This document shows positions 580 to 28,321 of a stretch of DNA of 64,000 nucleotides, piece after piece. The notes beneath the pieces are model-generated. The model was not told the origin of the DNA, made no database searches, and saw nothing but the letters and a program-made list of their open reading frames with translations. The position numbers and the translations under genes are program-made. This DNA comes from Candidatus Hydrothermarchaeum profundi (GTDB lineage Archaea; Hydrothermarchaeota; Hydrothermarchaeia; Hydrothermarchaeales; Hydrothermarchaeaceae), in contig MTMF02000009.1 in NCBI GenBank assembly GCA_002011125.2, forward strand, positions 1,320,989 to 1,384,988, given 5' to 3'. Positions within the stretch are counted from its first letter, which is position 1; every line of letters begins with the position of its first letter.

Positions 580-595
580 TTGAATCACATATTAG

Positions 596-664
596 CGGAG
601 GGCCCGAGAGTCGAACCCGGCTGCATGGAGTTAGAGTCCATGCGGTCTCCCCGACCTGCCCTCC
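596..664 (-). tRNA. pylT: tRNA-Pyl, anticodon CUA
   Basis: GGAGGGC-A-GGTC-GGGGA-GACC-G-CATGGA-CT[CTA]AC-TCCATG-CAG-CCGGG-TTCGACT-CTCGG-GCCCTCC-G: one nt between acceptor and D stems, 5-nt D loop, 6-bp anticodon stem, 3-nt variable loop, G73; CCA not encoded. Confidence 0.97.
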
Positions 665-25409: not shown

Positions 25410-25826
25410 ATGCTTAAGGAGGCTTTCTATAGAAGGATGATAGATGCTAACACTCTTAGAGCACAATTTGAAACTATCTATGGCGACGTAGACCTAGTAG
25501 TAAACGTTCTGCAAAACTGTGTAAAATATGGTGAGAAACTTAAATCTATAGCAAAAAGGAAGGAAGACGAAGACATGGCAAACGCTGCTATTGAAAGTAA
25601 CACTGCAATGCTATCAGCTATAAAAGGCGAAATATCAGTTGCGGAATTCAAAAAGAAAATGTGGGAGCTTGAGGAACGTTATCCTGAGTATTTCCAAAGA
25701 GGAAGGAGGGATATAGGCACCTCGAAAGATAATGTGAAAGCCATAATTCATAGGATAGAGTATATGATAGATAGATATGATGTCAGGTATCCAAGCTATG
25801 ATCGACATAGGTGCAATGATGCCTAA
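25410..25826 (+). CDS. Hypothetical soluble protein, coupled to fpoN
   Basis: 138-aa ORF starting 1 nt after the fpoN stop. Confidence 0.8.
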   Translation: MLKEAFYRRMIDANTLRAQFETIYGDVDLVVNVLQNCVKYGEKLKSIAKRKEDEDMANAAIESNTAMLSAIKGEISVAEFKKKMWELEERYPEYFQRGRRDIGTSKDNVKAIIHRIEYMIDRYDVRYPSYDRHRCNDA

Positions 25827-26097
25827 GGTGGTAGAGATGAGGGAACAGATTAAGGAATGTATTGAAGAGTTTGAAAAGGAAAAGACGGAGGTGGCAGCTG
25901 CTAGGCTTATCATATGTTTATATAATAACAAGGAAACTATTTACTGGGATGATGATCTAAAGAGGTTAAAATGCGCTGCAGAGGTTCATGATGAAAAGTG
26001 GGCTCCGTTAATGGAGGAGATAACTAAAGTCCTAGGGATAAAAAATAGGGATGAATACATTAAAATTAAAAACAAGTATAATTTAACGCAATACTAA
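25816..26097 (+). CDS. Hypothetical soluble protein, last gene of fpo-like operon
   Basis: Overlaps previous stop, SD AGGTG before ATG 25816, followed by T-run. Confidence 0.75.
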   Translation: MMPKVVEMREQIKECIEEFEKEKTEVAAARLIICLYNNKETIYWDDDLKRLKCAAEVHDEKWAPLMEEITKVLGIKNRDEYIKIKNKYNLTQY

Positions 26098-26102
26098 TTT
26101 TT

Positions 26103-26172
26103 AGTGGGAGGGGTGCCTGCGGGGGCGTTACTAAAATAAGTATTTATCCCGCAGGCAAGTGGGAGGGAGATC
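26103..26172 (-). ncRNA. Putative small RNA A: CCCUCCCA - hairpin - CCCCUCCCAC
   Basis: Stem GCCTGCGGG/CCCGCAGGC (26115-26123/26148-26156) flanked by C-rich motifs; own promoter CGAAAGA-TTTATAC at ~26208-26195; paralog of the next unit. Confidence 0.6.
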
Positions 26173-26209
26173 TTTGCTTTTTTGTATAAGTGCTGTATAA
26201 ATCTTTCGG

Positions 26210-26279
26210 AAAGTGGGGAGGGGGCCTGTAAGACATTTAAAAATAGGTCTTTGTCTTACAGGCGTATGGGGAGGGTAAT
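26210..26279 (-). ncRNA. Putative small RNA B: CCCUCCCCA - hairpin - CCCCUCCCCAC
   Basis: 12-bp stem GCCTGTAAGACA/TGTCTTACAGGC (26224-26235/26252-26263); promoter GGAAAAA-TTTATAAA with TATA at 26307-26300. Confidence 0.6.
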
Positions 26280-26356
26280 AATCCATGAAATTTATATCAT
26301 TTATAAATTTTTCCCTATTTCTGGTTTTATTTTTAATGTAGTGATACTACTCTGAG

Positions 26357-27196
26357 TTATAAATTATTGTTTGAAAGGGCATTTAGCATTGTGGTAAACG
26401 TAAAAACGCAAAATTTTGAAATGTCCTTTTCGCTTATAATTCCAACGACTCTACCTCTATCTATAATTGGAAGCCGTCTAATATTGCGTATATTAAATAA
26501 TCTACTAGCATCTCTGATGGACTTTTGAGGTTCTATGGAAGTATGGAGAGGTGTATGTATAATACCTATCATTACATCCTCTGGTGGTAAGGCCTTAGCT
26601 ACGACTTTTTTCAATACATCTCTCTCAGTTGCGATGCCGTATTTCCCCTCTGCGACTTCAACAATTACTTCTCCTACTCCTTTTTCCTTCATTAGTTTAG
26701 AAGAGTCTAATACAGAGGTTTCGGGGTTTTCAATAATTGCATCATGCATGATCTGTGACACTTTACATTCAAGGCTTCTAGCATGTTCTTTACACGTCTC
26801 TGAAAGGATTTGTATGGACTCATCATACAGGAAGATATTGTATCTAGCGACATCTTTGTTGTCTAATATACCCACGATAGTTCCCTTATCTACTACTGGC
26901 AACCTTCTAATATCGTAAAGATTAAAAAGCTGACAGGCACGTCTAACGTCTCTCTGAGCCTCTATAGTACGTAGTTCAATGCTCATGATTTCTTCCGCTT
27001 TGGTTTGAAGGAAGTCTTTATTTTTAGATACTACCTTGTATAGAATATCTCGCTCTGTGACAATACCAAAATCTTTATCTCCGCGATCTACTAGTACAGC
27101 TCCAGCATTTCCTTCGTCCATCAGTTTAGCGACTTCTAGTACGGAGGCATAAGGTTTTACAACTATTGGGGGATACATTAGTTCTCTGATTTCCAT
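26357..27196 (-). CDS. Protein with four CBS domains (two Bateman modules)
   Basis: Repeated GIVTERDIL/GIATERDVL, IRRLPV/IRRLPI, GIL/GII motifs. Confidence 0.9.
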   Translation of the reverse strand: MEIRELMYPPIVVKPYASVLEVAKLMDEGNAGAVLVDRGDKDFGIVTERDILYKVVSKNKDFLQTKAEEIMSIELRTIEAQRDVRRACQLFNLYDIRRLPVVDKGTIVGILDNKDVARYNIFLYDESIQILSETCKEHARSLECKVSQIMHDAIIENPETSVLDSSKLMKEKGVGEVIVEVAEGKYGIATERDVLKKVVAKALPPEDVMIGIIHTPLHTSIEPQKSIRDASRLFNIRNIRRLPIIDRGRVVGIISEKDISKFCVFTFTTMLNALSNNNL

Positions 27197-27408
27197 TATC
27201 TTCCCTTCTTACTCCTAGTATCAATTTAGATTATTAACATTCCGAAGAAATCAGGAATTTATCGAGTTAGATTTTTCAAAAAGTATATGGACTATATAAT
27301 TATTCAATAAATTGCTATATTTTATGAATTATAATACGAATATATGATGTATTATTGAATATCAGTACAAAAATTGTTTAAGTCATTAACTTTCTAGTAA
27401 GAAATTAA

Positions 27409-27487
27409 AAAGGCAAAGGCGGGTGTCGCCCCCCTCACCTCTTGGTACACCTCCTAACTACCTCTTGTTTTTCCCGCCTTTGCCTTT
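27409..27487. ncRNA. Putative structured RNA: 15-bp perfect stem enclosing three ACCUC (or GAGGU) motifs
   Basis: AAAGGCAAAGGCGGG (27409-27423) / CCCGCCTTTGCCTTT (27473-27487); 49-nt loop with TCACCTC, ACACCTCCT, TACCTC; TATA-like boxes ~30 nt outside on both sides. Confidence 0.55.
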
Positions 27488-27530
27488 ACTCCTTTTATAA
27501 GAGTCTAATTATAAAAATATTTTTTTAGCT

Positions 27531-27722
27531 GTGAGAGTAGTGTTGGGTATACTTCTATTTTTTCCCTATTTTTACGTTATGATTATAAATATAGATACAA
27601 ATTTATTTAGCATAGAGGCAATGGTGGGGACTGCTTTGGGGATACTCCTCTCCTTCCTCATATGTTCCTATTATAATTCTCCTACCGTTGCCTCCTCTCC
27701 TCTCCATCCTATTTTTGATTGA
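27531..27722 (+). CDS. Possible small two-TM membrane protein
   Basis: 63-aa GTG-start ORF with two hydrophobic stretches; no recognisable family. Confidence 0.35.
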   Translation: MRVVLGILLFFPYFYVMIINIDTNLFSIEAMVGTALGILLSFLICSYYNSPTVASSPLHPIFD

Positions 27723-27750
27723 AGTTCAGATTTGTTAAGTTGATGAAAAG

Positions 27751-27823
27751 CGCCGCCGGTCAGACTCGAACTGACGACCACGTGGTTAACAGCCACGCGC
27801 TCTACCTACTGAGCTACGGCGGC
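27751..27823 (-). tRNA. tRNA-Asn (GUU)
   Basis: GCCGCCGTAGCTCAG...CGTGG-CT[GTT]AA-CCACG...TTCGAGT...CGGCGGCG cloverleaf. Confidence 0.96.
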
Positions 27824-27922
27824 ATATCTGTAGGACGTGAATTACCGTCTAAAAGTATCGACAATCGCACATTTCTAAATCTAGTGAAATAAAAATATTA
27901 CGATTACTTGACTATCATGCTA

Positions 27923-28321
27923 TTACTCTTTTTTTAGATAATAGTAGACAGTTGTTAAAGGTATTCCTAGCTCGTCGCTTATTTCCTTTGCAGAGTATCC
28001 CTTGTCTTCTAGCTCGTAAACTTTCTCAATCTTCCAATTAGGGTGTGATCTAGGCCTGCCAGGTGTGAGTAGAAAGGCTTCAAAATTTACTCCTATCTTT
28101 GCTAATGCTTCTCTTATTTTTTTTGGAGTCCTTTCATATAGGCTTGGGGGGCAGGTGATTGTTTTTACGTTTGGTGCGGCTGTCAGTATAGATGCCAGAA
28201 TATTTATCGTGGGTCTCACGCTTAGATGGACTTTCTTCGTGGTTTCATCTAACTTGCGGTTTATTTCTTCGATTAAGACATCTTTTTGACTAGACCTTAG
28301 TACTACTACTTCTTTCATCAT
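27923..28321 (-). CDS. DUF1699-like protein with C-terminal HTH
   Basis: VHLSVRPT, CPPSLYE, then GYSAKEISDELGIPLTTVYYY HTH. Confidence 0.7.
   Translation of the reverse strand: MMKEVVVLRSSQKDVLIEEINRKLDETTKKVHLSVRPTINILASILTAAPNVKTITCPPSLYERTPKKIREALAKIGVNFEAFLLTPGRPRSHPNWKIEKVYELEDKGYSAKEISDELGIPLTTVYYYLKKE

What the first reader, a model, noticed from the sequence alone, without database searches (positions are those of the whole stretch)
27369..27520. Perfect 15-bp stem displaying three SD / anti-SD motifs in a 49-nt loop
Seen: AAAGGCAAAGGCGGG...CCCGCCTTTGCCTTT encloses TCACCTC, ACACCTCCT and TACCTC plus a C6 run. On + these mimic the archaeal 16S rRNA 3' tail (GAUCACCUCC); on - they read GAGGUAG, GGAGGUG, GAGGUGAGGGGGG, i.e. 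three SD sequences with no start codon. TATA-like boxes lie ~30 nt outside both ends (TTTAAG at ~27377 on +, TTTTTATAA at ~27517 on -), so orientation is unresolved. Inference: a multivalent RBS-blocking sRNA, a ribosome/protein decoy, or a sponge for the C-rich RNAs ~1.2 kb away (GAGGGGG can pair with CCCCCUC of unit B). The loop is too long for an ordinary terminator.
Basis: partly seen in the sequence, partly recalled or inferred. Interest (0 to 1): 0.72.

Follow-up and report, generated by a model that had tools for sequence, protein, structure and literature searches.

The report
Sibling hairpin RNAs mimicking the ribosome's tail
The flagged hairpin is one of at least seven related hairpins scattered between genes of an uncultured archaeon, whose big pyrimidine-rich loops copy the ribosome's mRNA-docking sequence, so it is probably a small RNA that blocks ribosome-binding sites, though no transcript has been seen.

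Summary
In detail: a perfect 15-bp stem (27409-27423 / 27473-27487) encloses a 49-nt loop with the named motifs.

It is not a lone oddity. A second hairpin lies 206 nt downstream (27615-27694), and five more of the same build lie elsewhere in the genome. All have a purine-rich 5' arm of the type GGCAAAGG, a 34-60 nt C/U-rich loop, and an intergenic position.

- GC-containing perfect stems of this length are almost absent from shuffled DNA.
- The stems covary between copies.
- G·U pairs favour the C/U-rich strand 11 to 1 in the core copies.
- The loops match the genome's own 16S 3' tail (GGAUCACCUCCU) far beyond what their composition predicts.

The best reading is a family of about 90-120 nt small RNAs read on the + strand. 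They would mask Shine-Dalgarno sites, like the cuckoo RNAs of Alphaproteobacteria or sRNA41 and sRNA154 of Methanosarcina mazei.

Weak points:
- No RNA data exist.
- No homologue was found in the 38 genomes of the phylum.
- For this copy the promoter score does not separate the strands.
- A T5 run lies inside the loop.

The proposed pairing with the RNAs at 26103-26279 is no better than for shuffled loops.

The scan has noted similar anti-SD-loop RNAs on other DNA.

The parts
27368..27381 (+). BRE/TATA-like element CAAAAATTGTTTAA, ending 27 nt before the stem
   Evidence: The PWM learned from 45 tRNA upstream regions scores it 6.7 bits; 11% of random intergenic windows do as well. Copy I has TTTAAGTC at the same distance. 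This is weak evidence: the opposite strand scores 6.0 bits.
27409..27423 (+). 5' arm of hairpin A (AAAGGCAAAGGCGGG), purine-rich
   Evidence: The arm motif GGCAA(A/U)GG is shared with B and D, and in shorter forms (GCAAAGG, GGCAAGG) with E and L.
27424..27472 (+). 49-nt loop, 78% pyrimidine. Anti-SD-like words are CCCCCCUCACCUC (27429-27441), ACACCUCCU (27447-27455) and UACCUC (27459-27464). ACCUCUUG occurs twice (27437-27444 and 27460-27467). A T5 run lies at 27468-27472.
   Evidence: (repeat D6). CACCUCCU equals the last 8 nt of the inferred 16S 3' tail.
27473..27487 (+). 3' arm of hairpin A (CCCGCCTTTGCCTTT)
27488..27526 (+). 3' tail ACUCCUUUU (T4 at 27493-27496) and a T7 run at 27520-27526. 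These are candidate archaeal termination sites and give an RNA of about 90 or about 120 nt.
   Evidence: UUACUCCU (27486-27493) is complementary to AGGAGUAA in front of the neighbouring CBS gene's start (direct repeat D4). An 8-nt match of this kind could be chance.
27583..27591 (+). TATA-like TTATAAATA, about 24-32 nt before hairpin B
   Evidence: PWM score 4.7 bits on + against 0.0 on -.
27615..27694 (+). Sibling hairpin B. Arms are GAGGCAAUGGUGGG and CCUACCGUUGCCUC around a 52-nt C/U-rich loop. The loop holds the 18-nt word ACUCCUCUCCUUCCUCAU (27644-27661).
   Evidence: I7.: + strand -32.2 kcal/mol, z -3.92, 0 of 200 shuffles as good; - strand z -0.58, 56 of 200. Three G·U pairs are valid only on +. 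The 18-mer is found exactly at two other loci.
27695..27716 (+). C/U-rich tail of B (CUCUCCUCUCCAUCCUA) ending in T5 (27712-27716)
27750..27823 (-). tRNA-Asn(GUU), convergent neighbour. It is not part of the RNA but is the only piece of this region conserved in relatives.
26357..27196 (-). CBS-domain protein gene, the left neighbour (context only)
   Evidence: PF00571, 4.8e-33.

Best explanation
The hairpin is a gene for a small non-coding RNA of about 90-120 nt read on the + strand. It is one of a lineage-specific family of at least seven sibling genes in this archaeal genome.

**Build of each sibling (shown).** A stable stem of 13-20 bp holds open a 34-60 nt C/U-rich loop. The loop carries two or three words that copy the 3' tail of the cell's own 16S rRNA (GGAUCACCUCCU). 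A C/U-rich tail that ends in a T run usually follows.

**Mechanism (inferred).** The exposed words pair with the purine-rich Shine-Dalgarno regions of mRNAs. They compete with the 30S subunit and so lower translation initiation. Several words per loop allow one RNA to cover several sites or several SD variants.

**Status of the steps.**
- Shown: the structure, the paralogous family, covariation of the stems, the strand bias of wobble pairs, the 16S-tail likeness beyond composition, and the use of SD sequences by this genome.
- Inferred: transcription, the RNA's ends, the targets, and the effect on translation.
For: **1. A family, not a single hairpin.**
- An unbiased scan for perfect inverted repeats (stem of 12 bp or more, loop 10-90) gave 28 hits in the 2.19-Mb genome. 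The two 15-bp ones are this hairpin and C9:1788852-1788928. Both loops start with UGU, hold a C6 run and CACCUCCU, and end in a U run.
- D (C9:1487836-1487923) and E (C9:495268-495335) came from the same scan. B came.
- A covariance model of A, B and D found L (C9:193101-193166) as the only non-training hit below E = 1 in the whole genome (E 0.016).
- In 18.6 kb of candidate loci that I had picked, the same model found I at 30.9 bits, L at 23.0, E at 22.1 and C at 19.3.

**2. Beyond chance.** See the shuffle control, described under the observation check.

**3. Stems covary among A, B, D, L and E.** 88.7% of cells pair, and 5 of 15 pairs change on both sides. The covariation score is reached by 3 of 500 shuffles, and cells paired fall to 42-67% when the partners are slid.

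**4. Strand.**
- G·U pairs valid only on the C/U-rich strand against A·C mismatches are 11 to 1 in A, B, D, E and I.
- B folds well only on +.
- C/U-rich tails plus T runs follow A (weakly), B, E, L, H and F (and, for F).

**5. Loops mimic the 16S tail (for the tail).**
- Five-mers shared with GGAUCACCUCCU number 42 in nine loops against 8.6 +/- 3.6 in shuffles (0 of 2000).
- The longest identities are 8-10 nt in A, C, L, H and I.
- For C, D and E, which were found with no motif filter, the count is 8 against 2.8 +/- 2.0 (98 of 5000).

**6. The genome uses SD sequences.**
- 581 of 2089 crude ORF starts have an SD-like 5-mer, with the peak 10-12 nt upstream.
- 47 copies of AGGAGGUG sit just before a start codon.

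**7. Position.** All 11 candidate copies are intergenic by crude ORF calls. Their neighbours are ordinary housekeeping genes such as TFB, TiaS, AlaRS and deoxyhypusine synthase, with no transposase.

**8. Precedent.**
- RBS masking by sRNA41 and by loop 2 of sRNA154 of M. mazei (passages read in PMC5867862).
- Cuckoo RNAs with CCUCCUCCC in each hairpin loop (abstract and section 6 of PMC4615179).
Against: - **No transcript evidence.** Expression, strand and RNA ends are unproven.
- **No homologue outside this genome.**
  - BLAST of 27200-27900 against 41 genomes matched only the tRNA (35 of 41 genomes, all within query 543-639).
  - Model R2 over 35 genomes of the order gave nothing better than E 0.0012 outside the own genome. 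I inspected 16 foreign hits by eye, and none showed the build in an AT-rich gap.
  - The best-looking hit, in G007, lies inside a 381-aa ORF.
  - The nearest relatives belong to another genus and are 62-82% complete, so this absence is weak evidence either way.
- **Promoter support is modest.** For A the score is 6.7 bits on + and 6.0 on -. Over 11 copies, 8 score higher on the C/U strand. Both orientations score above the random intergenic background.
- **T runs inside the loop.** A, C, D and G carry T5-T7 inside the 3' part of the loop on the C/U-rich strand. Archaeal RNA polymerase could stop there before the 3' arm is made.
- **Two weaker candidates point the other way.** H and N have A·C mismatches that would be G·U on the opposite strand.
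- **Partial circularity.** G and H were first picked with a CCUC filter, and L and I with a model that already favoured C/U loops. Part of the motif enrichment is therefore circular; the C+D+E test is the unbiased one.
- **No extended target.** No specific target with complementarity beyond the SD core was established. The 11-mer matches are at chance density.
Confidence: 0.45

Rival explanations
1. A repeated palindromic DNA element (REP- or MITE-like, or a protein-binding inverted repeat) that spread through intergenic DNA of this lineage and has no RNA function. The C/U richness would be a by-product.
For: - The family is found only in this genome among those searched, as is usual for selfish repeats.
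- The arms share a word, GGCAAAGG.
- The copies sit in intergenic gaps in every orientation relative to their neighbours.
- A hairpin used as single-stranded DNA would also show compensatory changes.
Against: - No Y1 (RAYT/IS200-type) transposase is present in the 97.65%-complete genome, and no transposase lies beside any copy.
- No target-site duplications flank the arms (flanks printed).
- Loops differ almost completely between copies while keeping their composition and 16S-tail words. This is the reverse of MITE copies, which are alike along their whole length.
- The 11-to-1 wobble bias towards one strand is not expected for a double-stranded DNA site.
Confidence: 0.15
2. The - strand is the one expressed. 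The loop then shows three Shine-Dalgarno-like words (GAGGUAG, AGGAGGUG, GAGGUGAGGGGGG) with no start codon. It would act as a decoy for the 16S tail or 30S subunit, or as part of a long leader of the CBS gene 213 nt downstream.
For: - The - strand fold is as stable as the + strand fold (-31.6 kcal/mol, z -3.42).
- A TATA-like TTTTTATAA lies about 25 nt upstream on - (6.0 bits).
- On - the loop has no internal T run.
- The CBS gene (for A and B) and a permease gene (for L) lie downstream on that strand.
- H and N have wobble pairs that favour the purine strand.
Against: - In the core copies, wobble pairs favour the C/U strand 11 to 1.
- B does not fold better than shuffles on - (z -0.58).
- Of the nine copies, T runs of four or more follow the hairpin on the C/U strand in seven, but on the purine strand only in one (A, 39 nt downstream); F's C/U-strand T6 is.
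- Only A, B and L of 11 copies have a co-oriented gene downstream on the purine strand, and it is 200-420 nt away.
- Copy I has an A6 run in its loop, which would read as T6 on the purine strand.
Confidence: 0.12
3. A + strand RNA that works by binding something other than mRNA SD sites. Candidates are a pyrimidine-tract or 16S-tail-binding protein (a decoy), an Sm-like protein on the U runs, or the G-rich hairpin RNAs at 26103-26279 (an sRNA and sponge pair).
For: - The likeness reaches up to 10 nt of the 16S tail including GAUC (copy I). That is more than SD pairing alone needs.
- U runs lie next to stems in A, C, D and G.
- The two G-rich units lie 1.2 kb away, are unique in the genome, and would pair strongly with any C/U-rich RNA (about -30 kcal/mol).
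Against: - Pairing with the G-rich units is no better than for shuffled loops (z -1.1 to +1.0).
- The strand of those units is unknown.
- No candidate protein partner was identified.
- No tool here tests protein binding.
Confidence: 0.1
4. A chance inverted repeat, or an ordinary transcription terminator between convergent genes.
For: - Perfect stems of 14 bp or more do turn up in shuffled DNA, at 1.5 per shuffle.
- The site lies between a - strand gene and a - strand tRNA in AT-rich DNA.
Against: - GC-containing stems with skewed loops appear in 0 of 8 shuffles against 4 in the real contig.
- There are six siblings with covarying stems.
- The loop is 49 nt, against 3-8 in the terminator scan.
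- Archaeal termination needs T runs, not hairpins (established knowledge, recalled).
Confidence: 0.03

Closest known systems
Cuckoo RNAs of Alphaproteobacteria (RSs0680a-d / CcsR, SmelA075, ar14)
   Same: Several sibling copies per genome, some in tandem. Hairpins are the building block, the stems vary freely, and the loops keep an anti-SD-like pyrimidine word (abstract and section 6 of PMC4615179).
   Different: - Cuckoo RNAs have 2-4 small adjacent hairpins with one fixed CCUCCUCCC per loop. Here one long stem encloses a 34-60 nt loop with two or three different 16S-tail words, and CCUCCUCCC is absent from A.
- They are bacterial, Hfq-bound and stress-induced. This family is archaeal and its expression is unknown.
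- No Rfam family matched.
sRNA41 and sRNA154 (loop 2) of Methanosarcina mazei
   Same: Archaeal intergenic sRNAs whose loops carry anti-RBS sequence and repress translation by masking ribosome-binding sites. For sRNA41 these sites lie within polycistronic mRNAs (passages read in PMC5867862).
   Different: Those are single-copy genes conserved within Methanosarcina, regulated by nitrogen, and have validated targets. I had no sequence of either to compare, so homology is untested. The family here is multi-copy and has no known target or condition.
C-rich / UCCC-loop sRNAs of Bacillota (RsaE/RoxS, LhrC and others)
   Same: Exposed C-rich loop words pair with G-rich SD regions, with several words per RNA. 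This is recalled, and was also named in earlier notes of this scan; I did not read those papers here.
   Different: They are bacterial, with short loops and different folds. No Rfam match at this locus.
REP / MITE-type intergenic palindromic repeats
   Same: Short, species-restricted intergenic inverted repeats in several copies.
   Different: No Y1 transposase, no target-site duplications, loops unalike in sequence but alike in composition and motif, and strand-biased wobble pairs.

Membership tests
Cuckoo RNA family (Rfam ar14 and relatives) | Loop motif CCUCCUCCC in every hairpin loop | tested here: not met
   The loop of A has CACCUCCU, UCACCUC and UACCUC but no CCUCCUCCC. None of the nine loops listed holds the full 9-mer; L has CCUCCUCC.
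Cuckoo RNA family (Rfam ar14 and relatives) | Two to four adjacent small hairpins in one transcript | tested here: not met
   Each unit is a single long stem with a 34-60 nt loop. A and B are 206 nt apart, each with its own TATA-like box and T run.
Cuckoo RNA family (Rfam ar14 and relatives) | Match to the curated covariance model | tested here: not met
   No Rfam hit other than tRNAs at gathering score over the window. At E of 5 or less over 26000-27760 only wcaG and two microRNA models appear, all at 19.9-21.3 bits and far below their cut-offs of 42-60.
M. mazei sRNA41 / sRNA154 | Sequence and structure homology to the Methanosarcina RNAs | not testable with these tools
   No sequence of either RNA was in hand, and no Rfam model matched. 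Only the mode of action is compared.
Anti-SD (RBS-masking) trans-acting sRNA, as a functional class | Exposed sequence complementary to the organism's own SD consensus | tested here: met
   The 16S tail GGAUCACCUCCU was found in the genome. Loop A shares 8 nt with it, and the enrichment holds over shuffles. SD words lie before genes.
Anti-SD (RBS-masking) trans-acting sRNA, as a functional class | Discrete transcript with its own promoter and terminator | tested here: inconclusive
   TATA-like boxes end 23-31 nt upstream in 8 of 11 copies, but the scores are modest and for A nearly equal on both strands. T runs follow downstream. No RNA data exist.
Anti-SD (RBS-masking) trans-acting sRNA, as a functional class | Demonstrated pairing with, and repression of, target mRNAs | not testable with these tools
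   Only 11-mer matches at chance density were seen. This needs toeprinting or reporter assays.
Intrinsic (hairpin plus T run) terminator | Short GC-rich stem, loop of 3-8 nt, T run directly after | tested here: not met
   The loop is 49 nt. The scan reports only a 7-pair sub-hairpin on the - strand.
REP / MITE mobile palindromes | Cognate transposase, target-site duplications, copies alike along their whole length | tested here: not met
   PF01797 is absent from the genome. Neighbours are housekeeping genes. The flanks show no duplications. BLAST of the element finds no other copy with E below 0.01.

The most novel reading that the evidence does not exclude
The family is a set of free-standing mimics of the 16S rRNA 3' tail. 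When induced together, they would compete with ribosomes for every SD-led mRNA. This would act as a global switch that moves translation towards leaderless or SD-less messages. The long stem serves as a scaffold, and the internal U runs give short and long isoforms. A rarer variant of this reading is that the mimics titrate a factor that recognises the pre-16S 3' end.
Probability: 0.12. Interest if true: 0.8.

Novelty: new variant of a known kind. Interest (0 to 1): 0.48.

Why it matters
Only a few trans-acting regulatory RNAs with a known mechanism are described in archaea, and those come from a few cultured models.

If these hairpins are expressed, they would show two things. Sibling families of anti-SD RNAs, known from Alphaproteobacteria and Bacillota, also arose in a deep-branching uncultured archaeal lineage. 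And they did so with a different build: one long stem showing several 16S-tail words in one large loop.

The family gives at least seven concrete loci to probe in metatranscriptomes. It also offers a simple in vitro test of RNA-level control of translation initiation in archaea.

If the hairpins are not expressed, the family is still a clean example of a lineage-specific palindromic repeat with strand-specific structural constraint.

Tried and rejected
- **Public sequencing runs.** No RNA holder is listed. The four DNA holders were laid on 26000-28000. X1 and X2, possible sources of this DNA, show no difference in the hairpins. The relative in X3 has contigs that stop at 27368, so no variant information on the stems was obtained.
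- **Metagenome scan with the neighbouring CBS protein.** One locus at 25% identity; no syntenic relative.
- **Genome-contig scan with AGGCAAAGG-N35-65-CCTTTGCCT.** 121 or more hits in unrelated bacteria, as chance predicts. Uninformative.
- **Same-phylum pattern search.** 6 of 38 genomes matched, including the own genome. Four of the five foreign hits have loops that are not C/U-rich. The fifth, in G007, lies inside an ORF.
- **Synteny through the TFB gene next to copy E.** TFB was found in 33 of 35 genomes. I read the downstream 200 nt of 26 loci by eye, and only the own genome has the hairpin.
- **Synteny through tRNA-Asn.** Eight loci were read and none has the hairpins. In G001 the contig ends at the tRNA.
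- **Relaxed hairpin scan, 12 of 13 pairs with G·U allowed.** Too noisy; most hits are coding or chance. It was used only as a source of candidates G, H, F, J and N, which remain uncertain members.
- **Target search by 11-mer complementarity.** Matches are at chance density. No specific target is claimed.
- **Pairing with the units at 26103-26279.** No better than for shuffled loops.
- **Promoter PWM.** Supportive at family level, but it does not resolve the strand for A.
- **Earlier notes of this scan near this place or like this sequence.** Nothing was found.

Full report
**What is in the sequence**

AAAGGCAAAGGCGGG (27409-27423) pairs perfectly with CCCGCCTTTGCCTTT (27473-27487) across a 49-nt loop. 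The loop is 78% pyrimidine. It holds a C6 run (27429-27434), TCACCTC (27435-27441), ACACCTCCT (27447-27455) and TACCTC (27459-27464).

The fold is far more stable than shuffles on both strands: z -4.56 on + and -3.42 on -. No credible ORF overlaps it. No Rfam family matches, either at gathering score or at E of 5 or less.

The left neighbour is a CBS-domain gene on the - strand. The right neighbour is tRNA-Asn(GUU) on the - strand.

The organism is an archaeon:
- an archaeal SSU model hit of 509 bits;
- TFB, TiaS and deoxyhypusine synthase among neighbouring genes of the sibling loci.

I did not check that.

**It is one of a family**

The same repeat search shows a second hairpin 206 nt downstream. 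Its arms are GAGGCAAUGGUGGG and CCUACCGUUGCCUC at 27615-27694, around a 52-nt C/U-rich loop.

A scan of the whole 2.19-Mb genome for perfect inverted repeats (stem of 12 bp or more, loop 10-90) returned 28 hits.
- The only two with 15 bp are this hairpin (A) and C9:1788852-1788928 (C). Both loops begin with UGU, contain CCCCCC and CACCUCCU, and end in a U run.
- Two 14-bp hits have related arms and loops that are C/U-rich on one strand: D (C9:1487836-1487923, AGGCAAAGGCAGGA) and E (C9:495268-495335, GCAAAGGUAAGAGA).

Covariance models added more.
- A model of A, B and D found L (C9:193101-193166) as the only new hit below E = 1 genome-wide. L has loop UUCACCUCCUCC...CCCCCCUCA and tail ACUCUUUUUUU.
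- With filters off, on ten candidate loci that I had chosen (18.6 kb), it also scored I (C9:1175139-1175219, loop GAUCACCUCCC), E and C.

Weaker candidates are G, H and N. F and K are not clean hairpins, but they share an exact 18-nt word, ACUCCUCUCCUUCCUCAU, with the loop of B.

All 11 candidates are intergenic by crude ORF calling.

**Is it more than chance?**

Stem length alone is not enough. Dinucleotide shuffles in 500-nt blocks give 1.5 perfect stems of 14 bp or more per contig, against 5 in the real one.

The content is decisive.

| Measure on contig C9 | Real | Eight shuffles |
|---|---|---|
| Perfect stems of 13 bp or more | 6 | 2-6 each |
| Of these, at least 6 G/C in the arm | 5 | one stem in all eight |
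| Of these, loop of 30 nt or more and at least 66% Y or R | 4 | none |

The stems also covary among A, B, D, L and E:
- 88.7% of cells pair;
- 5 of 15 pairs change on both sides;
- the covariation score is reached by 3 of 500 shuffles.

With five related sequences this is suggestive, not proof.

**Which strand?**

A's own stem is pure Watson-Crick and says little, so the siblings have to decide.
- In A, B, D, E and I, G·U pairs that work only on the C/U-rich strand number 11. A·C mismatches, which would be G·U on the other strand, number 1.
- B folds at z -3.92 on + and only z -0.58 on -.
- On the C/U-rich strand the hairpin is followed by a C/U-rich tail and a T run in B, E, L, H and F, and weakly in A. 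Of the nine copies listed, only A has a T run of four or more on the other strand, and it lies 39 nt downstream.

Promoter evidence is softer. A BRE/TATA-like matrix (GAAAAATTTAAATA) learned from the 45 tRNA upstream regions finds boxes ending 23-31 nt before the stem in 8 of 11 copies. It scores higher on the C/U strand in 8 of 11. For A it gives 6.7 bits on + against 6.0 on -, and both orientations beat the random intergenic background.

Two facts count against the + strand.
- A, C, D and G have T5-T7 inside the 3' end of the loop, where archaeal polymerase might stop.
- H and N have wobble pairs that favour the other strand.

I put the + strand for A at about two in three to three in four.

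**What the loops look like**

The genome's 16S gene ends ...GGAUCACCUCCU, followed by spacer. The mature end is inferred from homology.

Five-mers shared with that 12-mer number 42 in the nine loops, against 8.6 +/- 3.6 in composition-matched shuffles (0 of 2000).
- A alone has 8 (2 of 2000 shuffles reach that).
- Identities reach 8 nt in A and C, 9 nt in L and H, and 10 nt in I.

Some members were picked with a CCUC filter or with a C/U-biased model. I therefore repeated the test on C, D and E, which came from the motif-blind scan: 8 against 2.8 +/- 2.0 (98 of 5000).

The genome does use SD sequences.
- 581 of 2089 crude ORF starts have an SD-like 5-mer, peaking 10-12 nt upstream.
- 47 copies of AGGAGGUG lie just before a start codon.

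**Mechanism**

The simplest account is a sibling family of small RNAs. A stable stem presents a long single-stranded loop of anti-SD words. These pair with purine-rich ribosome-binding regions and hinder 30S binding.

This mode of action is documented in two places.
- M. mazei sRNA41, which masks RBSs within polycistronic mRNAs, and loop 2 of sRNA154 (passages of PMC5867862).
- The architecture of variable stems around a kept pyrimidine word, in several copies per genome, is that of the cuckoo RNAs (abstract and section 6 of PMC4615179).

Transcription, targets and effect are all inferred. One local hint exists: UUACUCCU in A's tail is complementary to AGGAGUAA before the neighbouring CBS gene's start (repeat D4). 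An 8-mer match of this kind is expected by chance in roughly one case in fifteen, by my own estimate.

**Rivals**

- *Selfish or protein-binding DNA palindrome.* This fits the restriction to one genome. It is disfavoured by four things: no Y1 transposase, housekeeping neighbours, no target duplications, and loops that differ in sequence yet keep composition and motif. The strand-biased wobble pairs also argue against it.
- *A - strand RNA showing SD mimics.* This remains possible for A itself.
- *Sponge for the units at 26103-26279.* Duplex energies equal those of shuffled loops. On the + strand those units are G-rich and would pair with any C/U-rich RNA.

**Conservation**

I could not show any.
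- BLAST of 27200-27900 found only the tRNA in 35 of 41 genomes.
- Model R2 gave only weak hits in 35 genomes of the order.
- The pattern search over 38 genomes of the phylum, TFB-anchored synteny over 26 loci, a metagenome scan and a genome-collection scan all gave nothing usable.

The genus has this one genome. The three family-level relatives are 62-82% complete.

**Verdict**

This is a real, non-random, multi-copy structured element. Most likely it is a new, lineage-specific family of anti-SD small RNAs with an unusual single-stem, large-loop build.

It is a new variant of a known kind and of moderate interest, and its expression is unproven. The scan has noted comparable anti-SD-loop RNAs on other DNA, including one archaeal order. 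Those notes are unchecked leads and do not count as support.

Noticed in passing
window 26103-26279: Two tandem hairpins (GCCUGCGGG...CCCGCAGGC and GCCUGUAAGAC...GUCUUACAGGC), each flanked on both sides by G-rich words (GUGGGAGGGG, GUGGGAGGGAG, GUGGGGAGGGGG, AUGGGGAGGG) on the + strand. T runs follow each unit on +. This arrangement occurs nowhere else in the genome. Four G tracts around a hairpin could form a G-quadruplex; that was not tested.
   Followed up: partly
genome C9:158001-158063, C9:1304420-1304486, and next to C9:1796757: A shared word of about 25 nt (GGCCAYGUCUURAGCCUUA...) lies directly 3' of tRNA-Cys, tRNA-Thr and tRNA-Glu. In the first two cases it is part of a 12-13 bp hairpin. 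It could be a conserved tRNA trailer or an integration site.
   Followed up: no
window 27644-27661; genome C8:95831-95848 (-), C9:1911237-1911254 (-): The exact 18-nt pyrimidine word ACUCCUCUCCUUCCUCAU occurs in three otherwise diverged intergenic loci. This looks like a kept seed sequence.
   Followed up: partly
window 595-664: ARAGORN calls a tRNA-Pyl (CUA) on the - strand. The Rfam tRNA model does not report it at gathering score.
   Followed up: no
genome C9:494283-495233 and C9:557708-558628: Two TFB (TFIIB) paralogues are 92% identical in protein. Several relatives in the order also have two or three.
   Followed up: no
genome C9, crude ORF of 32,508 nt around 1.10 Mb: A single open reading frame of about 10,800 codons appeared in the crude gene calls (context line).
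   Followed up: no
genome C18:23712-23729 and C18:24157-24174: Two copies of a repeat, identical over at least 78 nt, lie 445 nt apart on a small contig.
   Followed up: no
window 25777-26097: A 106-aa ORF with no Pfam hit ends ...KYNLTQY. In relative G014 an ORF with the same C-terminal end lies directly beside tRNA-Asn. The CBS gene and both hairpin pairs therefore look like an insertion between two conserved neighbours.
   Followed up: no
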